From Escherichia phage vB_EcoM_P8: a stretch of DNA of 64,000 nucleotides. A program made the position numbers and the translations under genes. Location: the sequence record PV390659.2; one strand, 5' to 3'. The notes under the pieces are model-generated. The model worked only from the letters and a program-made list of their open reading frames with translations. It was not told where the DNA came from and ran no database searches. Positions 21,718 to 53,074 of this stretch are shown here, in pieces. Numbering within the stretch: the stretch's first letter is position 1; every line of letters begins with the position of its first letter.

Positions 21718-24414
21718 ATGAAAGAATTTTATATCTCTATCGAAACAGTCGGAAATAACATTGTTGAGCGTTACATTGATGAAAACGGAAAGGAACGTAC
21801 TCGTGAAGTAGAATATCTTCCGACTATGTTTAGGCATTGTAAGGAAGAGTCAAAATACAAAGACATTTATGGTAAAAATTGCGCTCCTCAAAAATTTCCA
21901 TCAATGAAAGATGCACGAGACTGGATGAAGCGAATGGAAGACATCGGTCTCGAAGCTCTCGGTATGAACGATTTTAAACTCACTTATATCAGTGATACAT
22001 ATGGTTCAGAAATTGTTTATGACCGAAAATTTGTTCGTGTAGCTAACTGTGACATTGAGGTTACTGGCGATAAATTTCCTGACCCAATGAAAGCAGAATA
22101 TGAAATTGATGCTATCACTCATTATGATTCAATTGACGACCGTTTTTACGTTTTTGATTTGTTGAATTCAATGTATGGTTCAGTATCAAAATGGGATGCA
22201 AAGTTAGCTGCTAAGCTTGACTGTGAAGGTGGTGATGAAGTTCCTCAAGAAATTCTTGACCGAGTAATTTATATGCCATTTGATAATGAGCGTGATATGC
22301 TCATGGAATATATTAATCTCTGGGAACAGAAACGACCTGCTATTTTTACCGGTTGGAATATTGAGGGATTTGACGTTCCGTATATCATGAATCGTGTTAA
22401 AATGGTTCTCGGCGAACGTAGTATGAAACGCTTCTCTCCAATCGGTCGAGTAAAATCTAAATTAATTCAAAATATGTACGGTAGCAAAGAAATTTATTCT
22501 ATTGATGGCGTATCTATTCTTGATTATTTAGATTTGTATAAGAAATTCGCATTTACTAATTTGCCGTCATTTTCTTTGGAATCAGTTGCTCAACATGAAA
22601 CCAAAAAAGGTAAATTACCATATGATGGTCCTATTAATAAACTTCGTGAGACTAATCATCAACGATACATTAGTTATAACATCATTGACGTAGAATCAGT
22701 TCAAGCAATTGATAAAATTCGTGGGTTTATCGATCTAGTTTTAAGTATGTCCTATTACGCTAAAATGCCTTTTTCTGGTGTAATGAGTCCTATTAAAACT
22801 TGGGATGCTATTATTTTTAACTCGTTGAAAAGTGAACATAAGGTTATTCCTCAACAAGGTTCACACGTTAAACAGAGTTTTCCGGGTGCATTTGTGTTTG
22901 AACCTAAACCGATTGCTCGTCGATACATTATGAGTTTTGACTTGACGTCTCTGTATCCTAGCATTATTCGTCAGGTTAACATTAGTCCTGAGACTATTCG
23001 TGGACAGTTTAAAGTTCATCCAATTCATGAATATATCGCAGGAACAGCTCCTAAGCCAAGTGATGAGTATTCATGTTCTCCGAATGGATGGATGTATGAT
23101 AAGCATCAAGAAGGTATCATTCCAAAGGAAATCGCTAAAGTATTTTTCCAGCGTAAATATTGGAAAAAGAAAATGTTCGCCGAAGAAATGAATGCCGAAG
23201 CTATTAAAAAGATTATTATGAAAGGTGCAGGGTCTTGTTCAACTAAACCAGAAGTTGAACGATATGTTAAGTTTAATGATGATTTCTTAAACGAATTATC
23301 GAATTACACCGAATCTGTTCTTAATAGTCTGATCGAAGAGTGCGAAAAAGCAGCTACACTTGCTAATACAAATCAGCTGAACCGTAAAATTCTTATTAAC
23401 AGTCTTTATGGTGCTCTTGGTAATATTCATTTCCGTTACTATGATTTGCGAAATGCTACTGCTATCACAATTTTTGGTCAAGTTGGTATTCAGTGGATTG
23501 CTCGTAAAATTAATGAATACCTGAATAAGGTGTGTGGAACTAATGGTGAAGATTTCATCGCAGCAGGTGATACTGATTCGGTATATGTTTGTGTAGATAA
23601 AGTAATTGAAAAAGTAGGTCTTGACCGCTTTAAAGAACAAAATGATTTAGTTGAATTCATGAATCAGTTTGGTAAGAAAAAGATGGAACCTATGATTGAT
23701 GTTGCATATCGTGAGTTATGTGATTATATGAATAACCGCGAGCATCTGATGCATATGGACCGTGAAGCTATTTCTTGTCCTCCGCTTGGTTCAAAGGGTG
23801 TCGGTGGATTTTGGAAAGCGAAAAAACGTTATGCTCTGAACGTTTATGATATGGAAGATAAGCGATTTGCTGAACCACATCTAAAAATCATGGGTATGGA
23901 AACTCAGCAGAGTTCAACACCAAAAGCAGTGCAAGAAGCTCTCGAAGAAAGTATTCGTCGTATTCTTCAGGAAGGTGAAGAGTCTGTCCAAGAATACTAT
24001 AAGAACTTTGAGAAAGAATATCGTCAACTTGACTATAAAGTTATTGCTGAAGTAAAAACCGCGAATGATATAGCGAAATATGATGATAAAGGTTGGCCAG
24101 GATTTAAATGTCCGTTCCACATTCGTGGGGTGCTAACTTATCGTCGAGCTGTTAGTGGTTTAGGTGTAGCTCCAATTTTGGATGGAAATAAGGTAATGGT
24201 TCTTCCATTACGTGAAGGAAATCCATTTGGTGACAAGTGCATTGCTTGGCCATCAGGCACAGAACTTCCAAAAGAAATTCGTTCTGATGTACTGTCTTGG
24301 ATTGACTACTCAACTTTGTTCCAAAAATCGTTTGTTAAACCGCTTGCGGGTATGTGTGAATCGGCAGGTATGGACTATGAGGAAAAAGCTTCGTTAGACT
24401 TCCTGTTTGGCTGA
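21718..24414 (+). CDS. 43: DNA polymerase gp43 (family B)
   Basis: 898 aa, matches remembered T4 gp43 including exo and pol motifs. Confidence 0.95.
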   Translation: MKEFYISIETVGNNIVERYIDENGKERTREVEYLPTMFRHCKEESKYKDIYGKNCAPQKFPSMKDARDWMKRMEDIGLEALGMNDFKLTYISDTYGSEIVYDRKFVRVANCDIEVTGDKFPDPMKAEYEIDAITHYDSIDDRFYVFDLLNSMYGSVSKWDAKLAAKLDCEGGDEVPQEILDRVIYMPFDNERDMLMEYINLWEQKRPAIFTGWNIEGFDVPYIMNRVKMVLGERSMKRFSPIGRVKSKLIQNMYGSKEIYSIDGVSILDYLDLYKKFAFTNLPSFSLESVAQHETKKGKLPYDGPINKLRETNHQRYISYNIIDVESVQAIDKIRGFIDLVLSMSYYAKMPFSGVMSPIKTWDAIIFNSLKSEHKVIPQQGSHVKQSFPGAFVFEPKPIARRYIMSFDLTSLYPSIIRQVNISPETIRGQFKVHPIHEYIAGTAPKPSDEYSCSPNGWMYDKHQEGIIPKEIAKVFFQRKYWKKKMFAEEMNAEAIKKIIMKGAGSCSTKPEVERYVKFNDDFLNELSNYTESVLNSLIEECEKAATLANTNQLNRKILINSLYGALGNIHFRYYDLRNATAITIFGQVGIQWIARKINEYLNKVCGTNGEDFIAAGDTDSVYVCVDKVIEKVGLDRFKEQNDLVEFMNQFGKKKMEPMIDVAYRELCDYMNNREHLMHMDREAISCPPLGSKGVGGFWKAKKRYALNVYDMEDKRFAEPHLKIMGMETQQSSTPKAVQEALEESIRRILQEGEESVQEYYKNFEKEYRQLDYKVIAEVKTANDIAKYDDKGWPGFKCPFHIRGVLTYRRAVSGLGVAPILDGNKVMVLPLREGNPFGDKCIAWPSGTELPKEIRSDVLSWIDYSTLFQKSFVKPLAGMCESAGMDYEEKASLDFLFG

Positions 24415-24427
24415 TAGAATAAATCTA

Positions 24428-24448
24428 GGGACCTCCGGGTCCCTTTTT
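24428..24448 (+). terminator. intrinsic terminator (GGGACC-UCCG-GGUCCC + T5)
   Basis: perfect 6-bp GC stem and T run after gene 43. Confidence 0.7.
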
Positions 24449-24531
24449 CATACAAGTAATATAAATCTATACTTAGGAAAAATAGATGATTCTGGACCTC
24501 TGGAATTCATTAAAAAATTTTTCACAAAATG

Positions 24532-24561
24532 GTTTACAAGACTGTTCCTCTGTGGTACTAT
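24532..24561 (+). promoter_or_regulatory. T4-type early promoter with A/T-rich upstream element
   Basis: gtttac 24532-24537, tactat 24556-24561; member of conserved cassette family (also 52529, 53045, 56171). Confidence 0.6.
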
Positions 24562-24595
24562 ACAACTATCAACCAATACAGATTTGGAGAATGAA

Positions 24596-24976
24596 ATGAA
24601 AATCGCTATTTTAGTTATTGCATTGGGTCTTACTGGTTGTGTAGCTCAAGGACCAGTAGTAAATCAGTCTGATGCAGGAAAAATTGTAAACTGTTCAAGC
24701 AAATTTTATAATCCTAACGTCAAGTGTTATAAAGAAGCTCCAAAACAGACAGTAGAAGAAATGCAGGCGAATTTTGACGAAGCTATTCGTCCAGATGAAT
24801 CTGCTCAAGCATATCGTAATTCAGATGTGATTACGCGTGAAGAAAAAATTGAAAACTACTGCGCTGAACTTTGGGCTAATTGGGCTAATAATTACCAATG
24901 GCGTACTGGTAAAAATGCTCCGATGGAGTATGTAGTAAATTCTTACAATTCATGCGTAAAAAATTTGACTAAGTGA
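24596..24976 (+). CDS. predicted lipoprotein (signal peptide with lipobox LTGC)
   Basis: ATG 24596 after GGAG; MKIAILVIALGLTGC; track ORF 24407..24976 is an N-terminal over-extension across the promoter. Confidence 0.55.
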   Translation: MKIAILVIALGLTGCVAQGPVVNQSDAGKIVNCSSKFYNPNVKCYKEAPKQTVEEMQANFDEAIRPDESAQAYRNSDVITREEKIENYCAELWANWANNYQWRTGKNAPMEYVVNSYNSCVKNLTK

Positions 24977-24982
24977 GGAAAC

Positions 24983-25234
24983 ATGGAAACTTTAGTAGCA
25001 GGTTCAATTTTTATGGTTTTAGTTTCAGGCGTGTTGGCTATTATTATATACATGCTTCCGTGGTTCATCGCCTTGATGCGTGGGTCAAAATCGACAGTAG
25101 GAATCTTTTTCACATCTTTACTGTTTAACTGGTCAATTATTGGTTGGTTTATTACATTTATTTGGTCAATTGCGGGTGAAACTAAAAAGTCAACACAGCC
25201 AAATCAAGTAATTATCATCAGAGAGAAGGAATGA
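24983..25234 (+). CDS. imm: immunity to superinfection membrane protein Imm
   Basis: 83 aa, two TM segments, matches remembered T4 Imm. Confidence 0.85.
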   Translation: METLVAGSIFMVLVSGVLAIIIYMLPWFIALMRGSKSTVGIFFTSLLFNWSIIGWFITFIWSIAGETKKSTQPNQVIIIREKE

Positions 25235-25380
25235 AAAGCAAAATTATAACAGTGTTGCTTTTAATCTTGATGATTATAATAAGTATATACTATAGTGTAA
25301 CGGTTCCTCTTATGATTCCAACTATTATTTTAGGTTGGGGTTTATTACTGTTACAAGTTAAATATGAATGTATCAATTGA
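25231..25380 (+). CDS. small membrane protein (49 aa)
   Basis: ATGA overlap with imm stop; entirely hydrophobic. Confidence 0.35.
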   Translation: MKSKIITVLLLILMIIISIYYSVTVPLMIPTIILGWGLLLLQVKYECIN

Positions 25381-25387
25381 GGTTTAA

Positions 25388-26128
25388 ATGATTAATGACT
25401 CTATGACAGTTGAAGAAATTCGTCTTCATTTGGGAATTGCATTAAAGGAAAAAGATTTTGTAATTGACAAAACCGGGGTTAAAACTATTGAAATTATTGG
25501 TGCATCATTTGTAGCAGATGAACCTTTTATTTTTGGTGCTCTTAATGATGAATACATTCAGCGTGAACTTGAATGGTATAAGTCTCAAAGTCTGTGTGTT
25601 AAAGATATTCCAGGTGAAACACCAAAGATTTGGCAGCAGGTAGCATCTTCTAAAGGCGAAATTAACTCGAATTATGGTTGGGCCATCTGGTCAGAAGATA
25701 ACTATGCTCAGTATGACATGTGTTTAGCTGAACTTGGTCAAAATCCTGATTCTCGACGTGGTATCATGATTTATACTCGTCCATCCATGCAGTTTGACTA
25801 CAATAAAGATGGTATGTCAGATTTCATGTGTACGAATACAGTACAGTACCTGATTCGTGATAAGAAAGTCAATGCAGTGGTTAATATGCGCTCAAATGAC
25901 GTAGTCTTCGGATTCCGTAATGATTATGCATGGCAAAAATACGTACTAGATAAATTAGTATCTGATTTGAATGCAGGTGATTCAACTCGTCAGTATAAAG
26001 CAGGTTCCATTATATGGAATGTCGGAAGCCTTCATGTGTATTCCCGTCATTTTTATTTGGTTGACCATTGGTGGAAAACTGGCGAAACTCATATTGCGAA
26101 AAAAGATTATAACGGTGAGTGGAAATGA
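25388..26128 (+). CDS. 42: dCMP hydroxymethylase gp42
   Basis: 246 aa, thymidylate-synthase-like. Confidence 0.9.
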   Translation: MINDSMTVEEIRLHLGIALKEKDFVIDKTGVKTIEIIGASFVADEPFIFGALNDEYIQRELEWYKSQSLCVKDIPGETPKIWQQVASSKGEINSNYGWAIWSEDNYAQYDMCLAELGQNPDSRRGIMIYTRPSMQFDYNKDGMSDFMCTNTVQYLIRDKKVNAVVNMRSNDVVFGFRNDYAWQKYVLDKLVSDLNAGDSTRQYKAGSIIWNVGSLHVYSRHFYLVDHWWKTGETHIAKKDYNGEWK

Positions 26129-26967
26129 TTCAATTCGTAATTCCAAGCTATCAGCGCGTAGGGGCAGTTTCTGCCCTTGATATGTTTCCGACTGATTATG
26201 AACCTCATATTGTAGTACGTGAACACGAAGAAAAAGCTTATTATGACGCTTACGGGTCTAGAGCTAAAATTATAACTATTCCTGATGATGTTAATGGAAT
26301 TGCTGGTACTCGTAAAGCAATTACTGATATGTATGCAGGTCAACGAATCTGGATGATCGATGATGATACTACTATTCGTATGAGTTCAATGCGAAAGAAA
26401 GATGATCGTCGCTGTGTAGATAAAATTAATCAGTTAACCCGTGAACAGTTCTATGAATTGATTCAATACGTTGAAGATGCTATGGATTGCGGGTATTATC
26501 ATGGTCATGCTCGCCTACCAATTTTTAAAATTACTTCATCTTGGGGTAATTATCGTGAAAATTCATATGGATTCACGAATACATGGTATGACCTTGGAAA
26601 ACTTACGACAGAACAAATTGGGTATGGAAAAATTGATTTGTGCGAAGATATGTATGCATTTCTCAATTTAATTAATCAAGGTTATCCGCATTTGGCCTTG
26701 TTCAAATATCTGGTTGTATCTGGAAAAGCACAAGCTCCCGGTGGATGCAGCTCAATTCGTAGTAATTCAAAACATAATAGAGCTCTCGAGCAAATCAATA
26801 GAGAGTTTCCAGAGCAAACTCGTTGGAAAACTTCTAATATTGAAAAACGAAAATCATTAGGTGAAGAAGACGAGCCATTAAAGGTTCTTCGCATGTGTGT
26901 TTCGCGCAAAGAAAAATCAGAAGCGTTTCATAAGTTTAATGCTATTCATCCAATAGCAGTTGATTAA
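26119..26967 (+). CDS. DNA glycosyltransferase (GT-A-like, DxD), probable beta-glucosyl-HMC-alpha-glucosyltransferase of T2/T6 type
   Basis: 280-282 aa in the slot held by 351-aa beta-gt in T4; IDDDTT motif. Confidence 0.55.
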   Translation: MEMIQFVIPSYQRVGAVSALDMFPTDYEPHIVVREHEEKAYYDAYGSRAKIITIPDDVNGIAGTRKAITDMYAGQRIWMIDDDTTIRMSSMRKKDDRRCVDKINQLTREQFYELIQYVEDAMDCGYYHGHARLPIFKITSSWGNYRENSYGFTNTWYDLGKLTTEQIGYGKIDLCEDMYAFLNLINQGYPHLALFKYLVVSGKAQAPGGCSSIRSNSKHNRALEQINREFPEQTRWKTSNIEKRKSLGEEDEPLKVLRMCVSRKEKSEAFHKFNAIHPIAVD

Positions 26968-27044: not shown

Positions 27045-28226
27045 ATGTCTATTGCAGATTTAAAATCCCGTTTGATTAAAGCTTCCACTTCTAAAATGAC
27101 TGCTGAACTGACTACATCTAAATTCTTTAATGAAAAGGATGTAATCCGTACAAAAATCCCAATGCTTAATATCGCTATTTCCGGTGCGATTGATGGTGGA
27201 ATGCAGTCTGGTTTAACTATTTTTGCAGGTCCTTCTAAACACTTTAAATCAAATATGTCTTTGACTATGGTTGCGGCGTATTTGAACAAATATCCTGATG
27301 CGGTTTGTTTATTCTATGATAGCGAATTTGGTATCACTCCAGCTTATTTGCGATCCATGGGAGTCGACCCGGAACGAGTAATTCATACACCAATTCAGTC
27401 AGTTGAACAGCTGAAAATTGATATGGTGAATCAGCTTGAAGCCATTGAGCGCGGTGAAAAGGTTATTGTATTCATCGACTCAATCGGTAATATGGCTTCT
27501 AAGAAAGAAACGGAAGATGCCTTGAATGAAAAATCTGTGGCAGATATGACTCGTGCTAAATCGCTGAAGTCATTATTCCGTATTGTTACTCCTTATTTTA
27601 GCATTAAAAATATTCCATGTGTTGCGGTTAACCATACAATTGAAACAATTGAAATGTTTAGTAAAACCGTGATGACAGGTGGTACAGGCGTAATGTATTC
27701 AGCTGATACTGTATTCATTATCGGTAAGCGTCAGATTAAAGATGGTTCTGATCTTCAGGGGTATCAATTTGTTCTAAATGTAGAAAAATCTCGTACCGTC
27801 AAAGAAAAAAGTAAATTCTTTATTGATGTTAAATTTGACGGTGGTATCGATCCTTATTCTGGATTGTTAGATATGGCTCTTGAATTAGGATTTGTAGTAA
27901 AACCTAAAAATGGTTGGTATGCTCGTGAATTTCTTGACGAAGAAACCGGCGAGATGATTCGCGAAGAAAAATCTTGGCGTGCAAAAGATACCAACTGTAC
28001 TACATTCTGGGGTCCTTTATTTAAGCATCAACCATTCCGAGATGCTATTAAACGCGCTTATCAGTTAGGTGCTATTGATAGTAATGAAATTGTTGAAGCT
28101 GAAGTTGATGAATTGATTAACTCAAAGGTTGAAAAATTTAAATCTCCAGAAAGTAAAAGTAAATCAGCAGCTGATTTAGAAACTGACCTAGAACAGTTAA
28201 GTGATATGGAAGAATTTAATGAATAA
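27045..28226 (+). CDS. uvsX: RecA-like recombinase UvsX
   Basis: 393 aa, matches remembered T4 UvsX. Confidence 0.95.
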   Translation: MSIADLKSRLIKASTSKMTAELTTSKFFNEKDVIRTKIPMLNIAISGAIDGGMQSGLTIFAGPSKHFKSNMSLTMVAAYLNKYPDAVCLFYDSEFGITPAYLRSMGVDPERVIHTPIQSVEQLKIDMVNQLEAIERGEKVIVFIDSIGNMASKKETEDALNEKSVADMTRAKSLKSLFRIVTPYFSIKNIPCVAVNHTIETIEMFSKTVMTGGTGVMYSADTVFIIGKRQIKDGSDLQGYQFVLNVEKSRTVKEKSKFFIDVKFDGGIDPYSGLLDMALELGFVVKPKNGWYAREFLDEETGEMIREEKSWRAKDTNCTTFWGPLFKHQPFRDAIKRAYQLGAIDSNEIVEAEVDELINSKVEKFKSPESKSKSAADLETDLEQLSDMEEFNE

Positions 28227-52849: not shown

Positions 52850-53044
52850 GTTCATTATGGTGGTGTTTTGTTTGGTTAATTAGTATTCCATTAATTTGTT
52901 TAACATTTACTTTTGTGATGAGGTTATTATGAAAATTTTGAATTCTGTACTTATTGCTTGTGCGTGGTGGGTTGCACAAGTTTCGGCAGTAGTGATTGGT
53001 ATTCACATTTATTACGAATATTTTTAAAAAAGTTGTTTACAAGA

Positions 53045-53074
53045 CTGTTCCTCTGTGGTATTATTACCCTATCA
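53045..53074 (+). promoter_or_regulatory. T4-type early promoter (cassette family)
   Basis: gtttac 53045-53050, tattat 53069-53074. Confidence 0.6.

What the first reader, a model, noticed from the sequence alone, without database searches (positions are those of the whole stretch)
24505..25380. Promoter-proximal lipoprotein and small membrane ORF flanking imm
Right after the gene 43 terminator, a strong early promoter cassette drives a lipoprotein (lipobox LTGC, ~127 aa mature ORF), then Imm, then a 49-aa fully hydrophobic ORF overlapping the imm stop. The six-frame track merges promoter and lipoprotein into one 189-aa ORF, which would hide the lipoprotein start. Three envelope proteins in a row look like an extended superinfection-exclusion or envelope-modifying module.
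Basis: partly seen in the sequence, partly recalled or inferred. Interest (0 to 1): 0.4.

Follow-up and report, generated by a model that had tools for sequence, protein, structure and literature searches.

The report
T4 imm.1–imm–small-ORF envelope gene trio
The region holds exact counterparts of three already catalogued phage T4 early genes (a lipoprotein called imm.1, the superinfection-immunity gene imm, and a 49-residue membrane protein); only imm has a known function, and comparison of phage genomes gives suggestive, unproven support that the lipoprotein works with imm.

Summary
The window is a Tequatrovirus, identical here to phage BMB16 and about 96% identical to T4.

Downstream of gene 43 lie, in order:
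- a terminator hairpin
- a T4-type early promoter
- imm.1 (24596-24976; 126 aa; lipobox LTGC; Pfam DUF5481, PHROG 1754; 97.6% identical to T4 Imm.1)
- imm (24983-25234)
- a 49-aa hydrophobic ORF (25231-25380; PHROG 3610; named 42.1 in T4T; not annotated in the T4 RefSeq record)

All three ORFs are under purifying selection. The 24407 start is refuted: that frame is closed in T4.

New here is the comparative picture. Imm.1-family lipoproteins sit next to imm, or one tiny ORF away, in 7 of 8 Tevenvirinae lineages examined. This survives an order swap in Dhakavirus. It also survives a move in Mosigvirus, where imm.1, imm and spackle lie in a row, each with its own early promoter. Winklervirus keeps the lipoprotein with no imm nearby. 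The 49-aa ORF stays at the gene 43 locus rather than following imm.

Imm.1 has no structural or sequence relatives outside this family, and I found no functional study of it. A role in superinfection exclusion is plausible but untested.

The parts
24427..24449 (+). Intrinsic terminator after gene 43: 7-bp stem, UCCG loop, T5 run
   Evidence: -13.9 kcal/mol, z = -2.4. The hairpin is conserved in T4, L016 and L015.
24505..24561 (+). T4-type early promoter: A/T-rich upstream tract, -35 GTTTACA (24532-24538), 17-nt spacer, extended -10 TGgTACTAT (-10 hexamer 24556-24561)
   Evidence: conserved in all imm.1 contexts; one of 16 same-type promoters in the window, all on the + strand. Consensus taken from PMC4122927.
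24586..24589 (+). Shine-Dalgarno GGAG, 6 nt before the imm.1 ATG
24596..24976 (+). imm.1: 126-aa prolipoprotein. Signal peptide is aa 1-14, lipobox LTGC, and the lipidated Cys15 codon is at 24638-24640. The mature protein is 112 aa with 4 further Cys.
   Evidence: - Annotated in BMB16 and T4.
- DUF5481 at E = 1.7e-70; PHROG 1754 at E = 1.7e-43.
- Lipobox pattern match.
- dN/dS against T4 is 0.04.
- Lipobox Cys conserved in 21 of 22 full-length homologues.
24983..25234 (+). imm: 83-aa inner-membrane superinfection immunity protein with two hydrophobic segments
   Evidence: - PF14373 at E = 7.6e-16; PHROG 1039 at E = 2.3e-32.
- 97.6% identical to T4 Imm.
- Hydropathy profile.
25231..25380 (+). 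49-aa hydrophobic ORF ('42.1' in T4T). Its start overlaps the imm stop (ATGA). The conserved motif is P-x-MIPT...W....Q-x-K-x-x-C-x-N.
   Evidence: - PHROG 3610 at E = 5e-26.
- 761 phage records by tblastn.
- Precomputed PF26865 label.
- Alignment A2.
- pN of 0.22-0.34 against pS of 0.49-0.76 in comparisons with distant relatives.

Best explanation
This is the T4-type early transcription unit downstream of the DNA polymerase gene. A terminator ends gene 43. A sigma-70-type T4 early promoter then drives imm.1, imm, the 49-aa ORF and the genes that follow (42 and a glucosyltransferase).

**Shown by sequence and comparison**
- Imm.1 is an exported prolipoprotein.
- Imm is the known two-segment inner-membrane exclusion protein.
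- The 49-aa ORF is a real, conserved, very hydrophobic small protein.

**Inferred for Imm.1**
- It is cleaved and lipidated at Cys15. It is then sent by the Lol pathway to the inner face of the outer membrane, because no family member has Asp at position +2.
- It exposes a flexible N-terminal segment carrying the conserved Y-N-P-N-V-K-x-Y motif. It also exposes a C-terminal helical hairpin with an invariant Cys pair.
- It most likely acts in the periplasm as an accessory to the Imm and Spackle defence of the already infected cell against secondary T-even phages. That could mean interfering with the incoming tail tip or genome transfer from the outer-membrane side, or stabilising the envelope.

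**Inferred for the 49-aa protein**
- It is a separate inner-membrane micro-protein that is a resident of the gene 43 locus.
- In Tequatrovirus it is translationally coupled to imm, but it is not an obligatory partner of imm.
For: **Identity with T4 genes:**

**Export and lipidation signal**
- The lipobox pattern is matched.
- The lipobox Cys is kept in 21 of 22 full-length homologues. The +2 residue is V, A, G, S or Q and never D.
- The single exception (P0004) has swapped the lipobox for a signal-peptidase-I site, AHA|SDK, so it is still exported.
- A Cys pair (C89/C120) is invariant, as expected for a periplasmic protein.

**Expression**
- The promoter is conserved.
- T4 imm.1 is classed as early RNA and early protein.

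**Linkage to exclusion genes**
- The lipoprotein lies directly upstream of imm in Tequatrovirus, three metagenomic lineages, Gelderlandvirus, Jiaodavirus and Moonvirus.
- In Dhakavirus the order is 43-imm-small ORF-lipoprotein.
- In Mosigvirus, imm.1, imm and spackle are contiguous between genes 41 and 61, and each has its own early promoter.
- imm also abuts a spackle homologue in a Gualtarvirus.

**Evolutionary rate:** Imm.1 diverges faster than Imm in 31 of 36 lineage pairs, as expected for a protein facing a phage-versus-phage contest.

**Small ORF:** conserved across at least 5 genera and under purifying selection.
Against: **No functional data**
- I found no experiment on Imm.1.
- From my own recollection of Lu & Henning 1989, which I could not retrieve, plasmid-borne imm alone excludes T4. 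Imm.1 is therefore not required for Imm activity.

**The linkage may be inherited rather than functional**
- Adjacency may simply reflect common descent in the variable region after gene 43. Only one relocation (Mosigvirus) and one order swap (Dhakavirus) are independent events.
- Winklervirus Kc304 keeps the lipoprotein after gene 43, and I found no imm-like ORF in the 68 kb searched.
- Imm.1 and Imm divergences are uncorrelated (Spearman 0.09). This argues against tight physical co-evolution.

**No structural clue**
- The AlphaFold models are mediocre (pLDDT 64-65). Only residues 81-125 are confident.
- Searches against viral models and the PDB found no relatives.
- There is no sequence similarity to Spackle.

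Lipidation and outer-membrane sorting are predictions only.
Confidence: 0.4

Rival explanations
1. The three genes are neighbours only by descent. They are independent residents of the variable, promoter-rich region downstream of gene 43. Imm.1 has an envelope function unrelated to exclusion, for example countering a host periplasmic or envelope factor, or tuning lysis or lysis inhibition.
For: - Winklervirus has 43-lipoprotein-arabinose-5-P isomerase-small ORF with no adjacent imm, and no imm in the 68 kb searched.
- Other cassettes insert freely in this region, such as the frd.3-like gene in L015 and the isomerase gene in Mosigvirus and Winklervirus.
- Imm.1 and Imm divergences are uncorrelated.
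- Stem-loop plus early-promoter units are proposed to shuffle genes in T4-like phages (PMC4122927).
Against: - In Mosigvirus, imm.1 and imm left the gene 43 locus together although each has its own promoter, and they landed beside spackle.
- In Dhakavirus the order changed but the neighbourhood was kept.
- Overall, adjacency holds in 7 of 8 lineages.
Confidence: 0.35
2. Imm.1 is a receptor-blocking exclusion lipoprotein of the T5 Llp / Cor type. On this reading it binds the outer-membrane receptor of the phage and so prevents re-adsorption.
For: It is an early-expressed lipoprotein predicted to reach the outer membrane, encoded next to a known exclusion gene. The Llp precedent is described in PMC9586334 (listed).
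Against: - Imm.1 is 96.8-97.6% identical between this phage, T4 and T2. From my own knowledge, not checked here, T4 uses OmpC/LPS and T2 uses FadL/OmpF. Such conservation does not fit a receptor-specific blocker.
- There was no Pfam, PHROG or PADLOC hit to Llp- or Cor-type families.
- There was no structural match in the PDB.
Confidence: 0.07
3. The 49-aa ORF is not a gene. On this reading, its conservation reflects regulatory DNA for gene 42 that lies between imm and 42, such as a promoter or ribosome-binding region.
For: - The ORF is not annotated in the T4 RefSeq record.
- A weak MotA-box-like TGCTTTTA (25256-25263) followed by TATAAT (25275-25280) lies inside it (read). My strict pattern scan did not score this site.
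Against: - The reading frame is open in 761 phage records.
- Conservation is at the protein level. Against distant relatives pN is 0.22-0.34 and pS is 0.49-0.76, and ten residues are invariant across seven lineages.
- In Mosigvirus, Winklervirus and Dhakavirus the homologue is not followed by gene 42.
- It has its own PHROG family and a precomputed Pfam label.
Confidence: 0.05

Closest known systems
Phage T4 imm.1 (T4p046, UniProt P18057; Pfam DUF5481, PHROG 1754)
   Same: It is the ortholog: 97.6% identical, in the same position between genes 43 and imm, with the same promoter and terminator and the same lipobox position (T4 has LAGC, this phage LTGC).
   Different: Three amino-acid changes and one extra C-terminal Lys. 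As in T4, the function is unknown.
Phage T4 Imm (PF14373), superinfection immunity protein
   Same: It is the ortholog: 83 aa, 97.6% identical, with two hydrophobic segments.
   Different: Nothing of note.
PHROG 3610 / PF26865 small membrane protein ('42.1' in phage T4T HM137666)
   Same: Full-length match at E = 5e-26. T4 encodes the same ORF with 3 substitutions.
   Different: It is not annotated in the T4 RefSeq record NC_000866. No function has been assigned.
T4 Spackle (gp61.3), periplasmic inhibitor of the gp5 tail lysozyme
   Same: What it works like: both are small, early, exported proteins that are largely helical and carry a conserved Cys pair, and both are encoded beside imm in Mosigvirus (Spackle properties from PMC7677548).
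   Different: There is no sequence similarity and no fold match to any PDB chain. Imm.1 is lipid-anchored, whereas Spackle is soluble. No target is known for Imm.1.
T5 Llp and lambdoid Cor exclusion lipoproteins
   Same: They are phage-encoded lipoproteins that protect the infected cell at the envelope.
   Different: There is no homology. Imm.1 is nearly invariant between T4 and T2, which argues against receptor-specific blocking if, as I recall, those phages use different receptors.
PeSL elements (stem-loop plus early promoter; Comeau et al. 2014, PMC4122927)
   Same: The layout is terminator stem-loop, A/T-rich tract, TTTACW-N17-TAYWAT promoter, Shine-Dalgarno and start codon. It lies next to non-essential adaptive genes.
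   Different: The stem-loop lies about 88 nt upstream of the -35 hexamer rather than immediately before the promoter. I did not test any role in recombination.

Membership tests
T4 Imm.1 / Pfam DUF5481 / PHROG 1754 | Sequence match above the curated threshold | tested here: met
   DUF5481 scores 234.3 bits against a cut-off of 27, E = 1.7e-70. PHROG 1754 matches at E = 1.7e-43.
T4 Imm.1 / Pfam DUF5481 / PHROG 1754 | Orthologous position between gene 43 and imm, behind the same terminator and early promoter | tested here: met
Bacterial-type lipoproteins (Lgt/LspA substrates) | N-terminal basic residue, hydrophobic core, and lipobox [LVI][ASTVI][GAS]C | tested here: met
   The protein starts MK-IAILVIALG-LTGC and matches a PROSITE-like pattern at residues 5-15.
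Bacterial-type lipoproteins (Lgt/LspA substrates) | Lipobox Cys conserved in homologues | tested here: met
   21 of 22 full-length family members keep it. The exception carries a signal-peptidase-I site instead.
Bacterial-type lipoproteins (Lgt/LspA substrates) | Actual lipid modification and signal peptidase II cleavage; membrane destination | not testable with these tools
   Outer-membrane sorting is inferred only from the absence of Asp at position +2.
Imm superinfection immunity (PF14373) | Pfam match and two hydrophobic segments | tested here: met
   58.2 bits against a cut-off of 27.9; hydropathy profile.
Imm superinfection immunity (PF14373) | Blocks DNA entry of a superinfecting T-even phage | not testable with these tools
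   Assumed from 97.6% identity to T4 Imm.
PHROG 3610 / PF26865 small membrane protein | Full-length profile match and the conserved MIPT...W...Q-K-x-x-C-x-N motif | tested here: met
   E = 5e-26 over residues 3-49; alignment A2; precomputed PF26865 label on 21 relatives. This model is absent from the local Pfam copy.
Receptor-blocking exclusion lipoproteins (T5 Llp, Cor) | Homology or fold similarity to Llp or Cor | tested here: not met
   No such Pfam, PHROG or PADLOC hit, and no match to any PDB chain.
Receptor-blocking exclusion lipoproteins (T5 Llp, Cor) | Binds and inactivates the phage's own receptor | not tested
   Indirect evidence against: Imm.1 is 96.8% identical in T2. From my own knowledge, T2 uses different receptors from T4.
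Spackle (PF25676) | Sequence or fold similarity to Spackle | tested here: not met
PeSL composite promoter-terminator element | Stem-loop directly upstream of an early promoter of consensus TTTACW-N17-TAYWAT, followed by a Shine-Dalgarno and a start codon | tested here: inconclusive
   The promoter, Shine-Dalgarno and start codon fit. The stem-loop, however, lies about 88 nt upstream of the -35 hexamer.

The most novel reading that the evidence does not exclude
The Imm.1-family lipoprotein is a third, so far untested component of T-even superinfection exclusion and envelope protection. On this reading it acts from the outer-membrane side together with Imm in the inner membrane and Spackle in the periplasm. 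The Mosigvirus imm.1-imm-sp row would then be a dedicated exclusion island. The 49-aa protein might be a fourth, dispensable membrane partner of Imm in Tequatrovirus and Dhakavirus.
Probability: 0.3. Interest if true: 0.55.

Novelty: already known. Interest (0 to 1): 0.27.

Why it matters
Phage biologists still do not know how Imm stops DNA entry. If the lipoprotein encoded beside imm in nearly all T-even relatives takes part, it gives a concrete new handle on that old question: a periplasmic, outer-membrane-anchored partner that can be deleted, expressed and pulled down.

As it stands, the region is an ordinary, already catalogued part of a T4-like genome. The useful outputs are:
- a clear annotation of the locus
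- the synteny table across lineages
- three annotation fixes: the start codon, the 'iduronate sulfatase' label on T4 imm.1, and the small ORF missing from the T4 RefSeq record

Tried and rejected
**The 24407 TTG start: rejected.**
- The frame is closed in T4.
- It would read through the terminator and promoter.
- A good Shine-Dalgarno precedes 24596.

**Structure-based function for Imm.1: nothing usable.**
- Two AlphaFold runs, with 6 and 23 sequences, gave pLDDT of 64-65.
- Foldseek against viral models found only family members.
- A profile search of PDB sequences was empty.
- The afdb50 library was unavailable.

**Homology outside phages: none.** Only 6 representatives appeared among 1.84 billion proteins, and all those whose context I checked came from T4-like contigs.

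**Other similarity tests**
- Spackle similarity: none.
- PADLOC: only noise.

**Literature**
- Full-text searches gave nothing on imm.1 or DUF5481 function.
- The CRISPRi-ART and HIDEN-SEQ papers do not mention imm or imm.1 in their main text.
- Miller 2003 and Lu & Henning 1989 are not held.

**Two of my own interim conclusions were wrong and were corrected.**
- L015 is not a new genomic context. It is the gene 43 locus with one inserted cassette.
- Dhakavirus does not lack the lipoprotein. It lies downstream of imm.

**MotA-type middle promoter inside the small ORF:** only a weak match, not scored by my strict pattern.

Full report
**What the window is.** The stretch 24300-25500 is 100% identical to Escherichia phage vB_EcoM_BMB16 (Tequatrovirus). 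It is 90-97% identical to about 500 other T4-like phages. The gene order on the + strand is gene 43 (21718-24414), a 126-aa ORF, imm, a 49-aa ORF, gene 42 (25388-26128) and a 282-aa glucosyltransferase. The T4 RefSeq record has the same order: 43, imm.1, imm, 42.

**Checking the observation.** All the elements exist.
- The terminator is a 7-bp GC-rich hairpin (24427-44) with a UCCG loop and a T-run. Its energy is -13.9 kcal/mol, z = -2.4.
- The promoter is GTTTACA-17 nt-TGgTACTAT (24532-24561), preceded by an A/T-rich tract.
- It fits the early-promoter consensus reported for the T4/PST pair, TTTACW-N17-TAYWAT (PMC4122927). That pattern occurs 16 times on the + strand of the window and never on the - strand.
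- The core sequence is conserved upstream of every imm.1 homologue aligned.
- GGAG lies 6 nt before the ATG at 24596.
- The six-frame ORF from TTG 24407 (189 aa) is an artefact. In T4 that frame is closed up to a TTG four codons before the ATG, and all annotators start at the ATG.

**The lipoprotein is T4 imm.1.**
- It is 97.6% identical to T4 Imm.1. It matches Pfam DUF5481 at 234 bits and PHROG 1754.
- The N-terminus MKIAILVIALGLTGC fits the lipobox rule.
- The family is small and confined to phages. There are six representatives among 1.84 billion proteins. A profile search added about 15 more clusters.
- In a 23-sequence alignment, 21 of 22 full-length members keep the lipobox Cys.
- The exception, P0004, has a signal-peptidase-I site instead (AHA|SDK), so it is still exported.
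- Position +2 is never Asp. By the established Lol-avoidance rule this predicts outer-membrane anchoring. That is an inference, not a test.
- C89 and C120 are invariant.
- Between this phage and T4, imm.1 has 16 synonymous and 3 non-synonymous differences, giving dN/dS of 0.04.
- In T4, imm.1 is classed as early RNA and early protein (PMC9697503 supplement).

**Structure gave no functional clue.**
- AlphaFold models are confident only for a C-terminal helical hairpin, residues 81-125.
- Neither fold search nor sequence search found relatives outside the family.
- There is no similarity to Spackle.

**Imm.** The 83-aa protein matches PF14373 and is 97.6% identical to T4 Imm.

**The 49-aa ORF.**
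- It matches PHROG 3610 at E = 5e-26. Its relatives carry a precomputed PF26865 label.
- It is annotated as hypothetical in BMB16 and as '42.1' in T4T.
- It is missing from the T4 RefSeq annotation, although T4 encodes it with three substitutions.
- tblastn finds it in 761 phage records across several genera.
- Ten residues are invariant across seven lineages.
- Against distant relatives, pN is 0.22-0.34 and pS is 0.49-0.76. It is a real gene.
- Residues 5-41 are continuously hydrophobic, with conserved prolines in the middle. This suggests a helical hairpin or one long kinked segment. The topology was not tested.

**Is it one module?** I compared arrangements across eight lineages.
- *Tequatrovirus and metagenomic L013:* 43-lipoprotein-imm-small ORF-42.
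- *L015:* the same, with an extra frd.3-like cassette inserted after gene 43.
- *L016, Gelderlandvirus, Jiaodavirus and Moonvirus:* 43-lipoprotein-imm-42, with no small ORF.
- *Dhakavirus and phage 212:* 43-imm-small ORF-lipoprotein. The lipoprotein matches PHROG 1754 at E = 9e-52 and aligns to the family by hhalign at 98% probability.
- *Mosigvirus:* the gene 43 locus keeps only an arabinose-5-phosphate isomerase gene and the small ORF. Meanwhile imm.1, imm and spackle lie in a row between genes 41 and 61, each behind its own early-type promoter.
- *Winklervirus Kc304:* 43-lipoprotein-isomerase-small ORF. No imm-like ORF was detectable in the 68 kb searched.
- *Outside the subfamily:* imm in a Gualtarvirus is overlapped by a spackle homologue. 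In a Chaseviridae phage and an Acinetobacter phage, imm stands without a lipoprotein.

What this shows:
- The lipoprotein is next to imm, or one tiny ORF away, in 7 of 8 lineages. It stayed with imm through one order swap and one relocation.
- The small ORF is next to imm in four lineages, is separated from it in two, and is absent in four.
- Imm.1 diverges faster than Imm in 31 of 36 pairs, and the two divergences are uncorrelated.

**Interpretation.**
- The safest statement is that the region is the known T4 imm.1-imm-42.1 early unit.
- The synteny gives suggestive, not conclusive, support for a functional tie between the lipoprotein and the Imm/Spackle exclusion system.
- The main rival is plain inheritance of neighbours in a variable region. 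Winklervirus and the uncorrelated divergence support that rival.
- A receptor-blocking role like T5 Llp is unlikely. Imm.1 is about 97% identical in T2 and T4, and by my own knowledge those phages use different receptors.
- The small ORF behaves as a resident of the gene 43 locus and is not part of a mobile imm unit.

**Literature.** I found no paper dealing with imm.1 function. My memory of Lu & Henning 1989 is that cloned imm alone excludes T4. I could not check this because the paper is not held.

**Verdict.** The genes are already known. Interest is low to moderate, resting on a cheap, testable hypothesis about a long-unexplained exclusion mechanism.

Noticed in passing
T4 NC_000866 26636-27013 (L003 5637-6014); also GEP001, fPS-2 and Jbel records: RefSeq labels T4 imm.1 'iduronate sulfatase', and the label has spread to other phage records. 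The protein matches only DUF5481 and has no sulfatase domain. The name looks like an annotation error.
   Followed up: partly
L003 5228-5377 (- strand) = T4 26227-26376: The T4 reference annotation leaves a 153-nt gap between imm and 42. That gap encodes the conserved 49-aa protein, which is annotated as 42.1 in T4T and as hypothetical in many relatives.
   Followed up: yes
L009 2495-3530 (Mosigvirus moskry): imm.1, imm and spackle are contiguous, each behind its own early-type promoter. They lie between dmd/61.4-like genes and 61.2-like genes.
   Followed up: yes
L021 1507-1940 (Morganella phage Rgz1): A 64-aa imm is overlapped at its stop by an 80-aa spackle homologue (PHROG 1586, E = 4e-17). 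This is a second lineage in which the two exclusion genes are adjacent.
   Followed up: partly
L015 718-1086 (protein P0004): One Imm.1 variant has replaced the lipobox (LAGF instead of L-x-G-C) with a signal-peptidase-I-type signal (AHA|SDK). Its Imm is still 83% identical to the window's, against 43% for Imm.1 itself.
   Followed up: partly
P0002 (4 metagenomic contigs); compare window 24837-24935: A 112-aa Imm.1 variant switches after residue 84 into the +1 frame seen at window 24837-24935. This is either a frameshifted imm.1 or a sequencing error.
   Followed up: no
window 53036-53064 versus 24533-24561: The imm.1 promoter core is repeated 28/29 identical at 53036, upstream of a small hydrophobic ORF (MKKIVKAIWNVVIILVV...). 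Several early promoters in the window share an extended consensus.
   Followed up: partly
window 26119-26967: The gene after 42 is a 282-aa glucosyltransferase (BMB16 annotates the start at 26125). It has a weak PF20691 match, and relatives label the equivalent gene beta-glucosyl-HMC-alpha-glucosyltransferase. T4 has the 351-aa beta-gt instead. The next large ORF (27045-28226, 393 aa) follows 77 nt later, leaving no room for a segA-sized gene like the one T4 carries between b-gt and uvsX.
   Followed up: no
window 25256-25280: Inside the 49-aa ORF there is a TGCTTTTA followed 12 nt later by TATAAT. This resembles a MotA-dependent middle promoter for gene 42, but it did not meet my strict pattern.
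   Followed up: partly
L010 1318-1953; L012 1324-1950: In Mosigvirus and Winklervirus an arabinose-5-phosphate isomerase gene (PHROG 5670, E = 2e-116) sits directly upstream of the small ORF homologue, and its stop overlaps the small ORF's start. A roughly 560-aa ORF follows.
   Followed up: no
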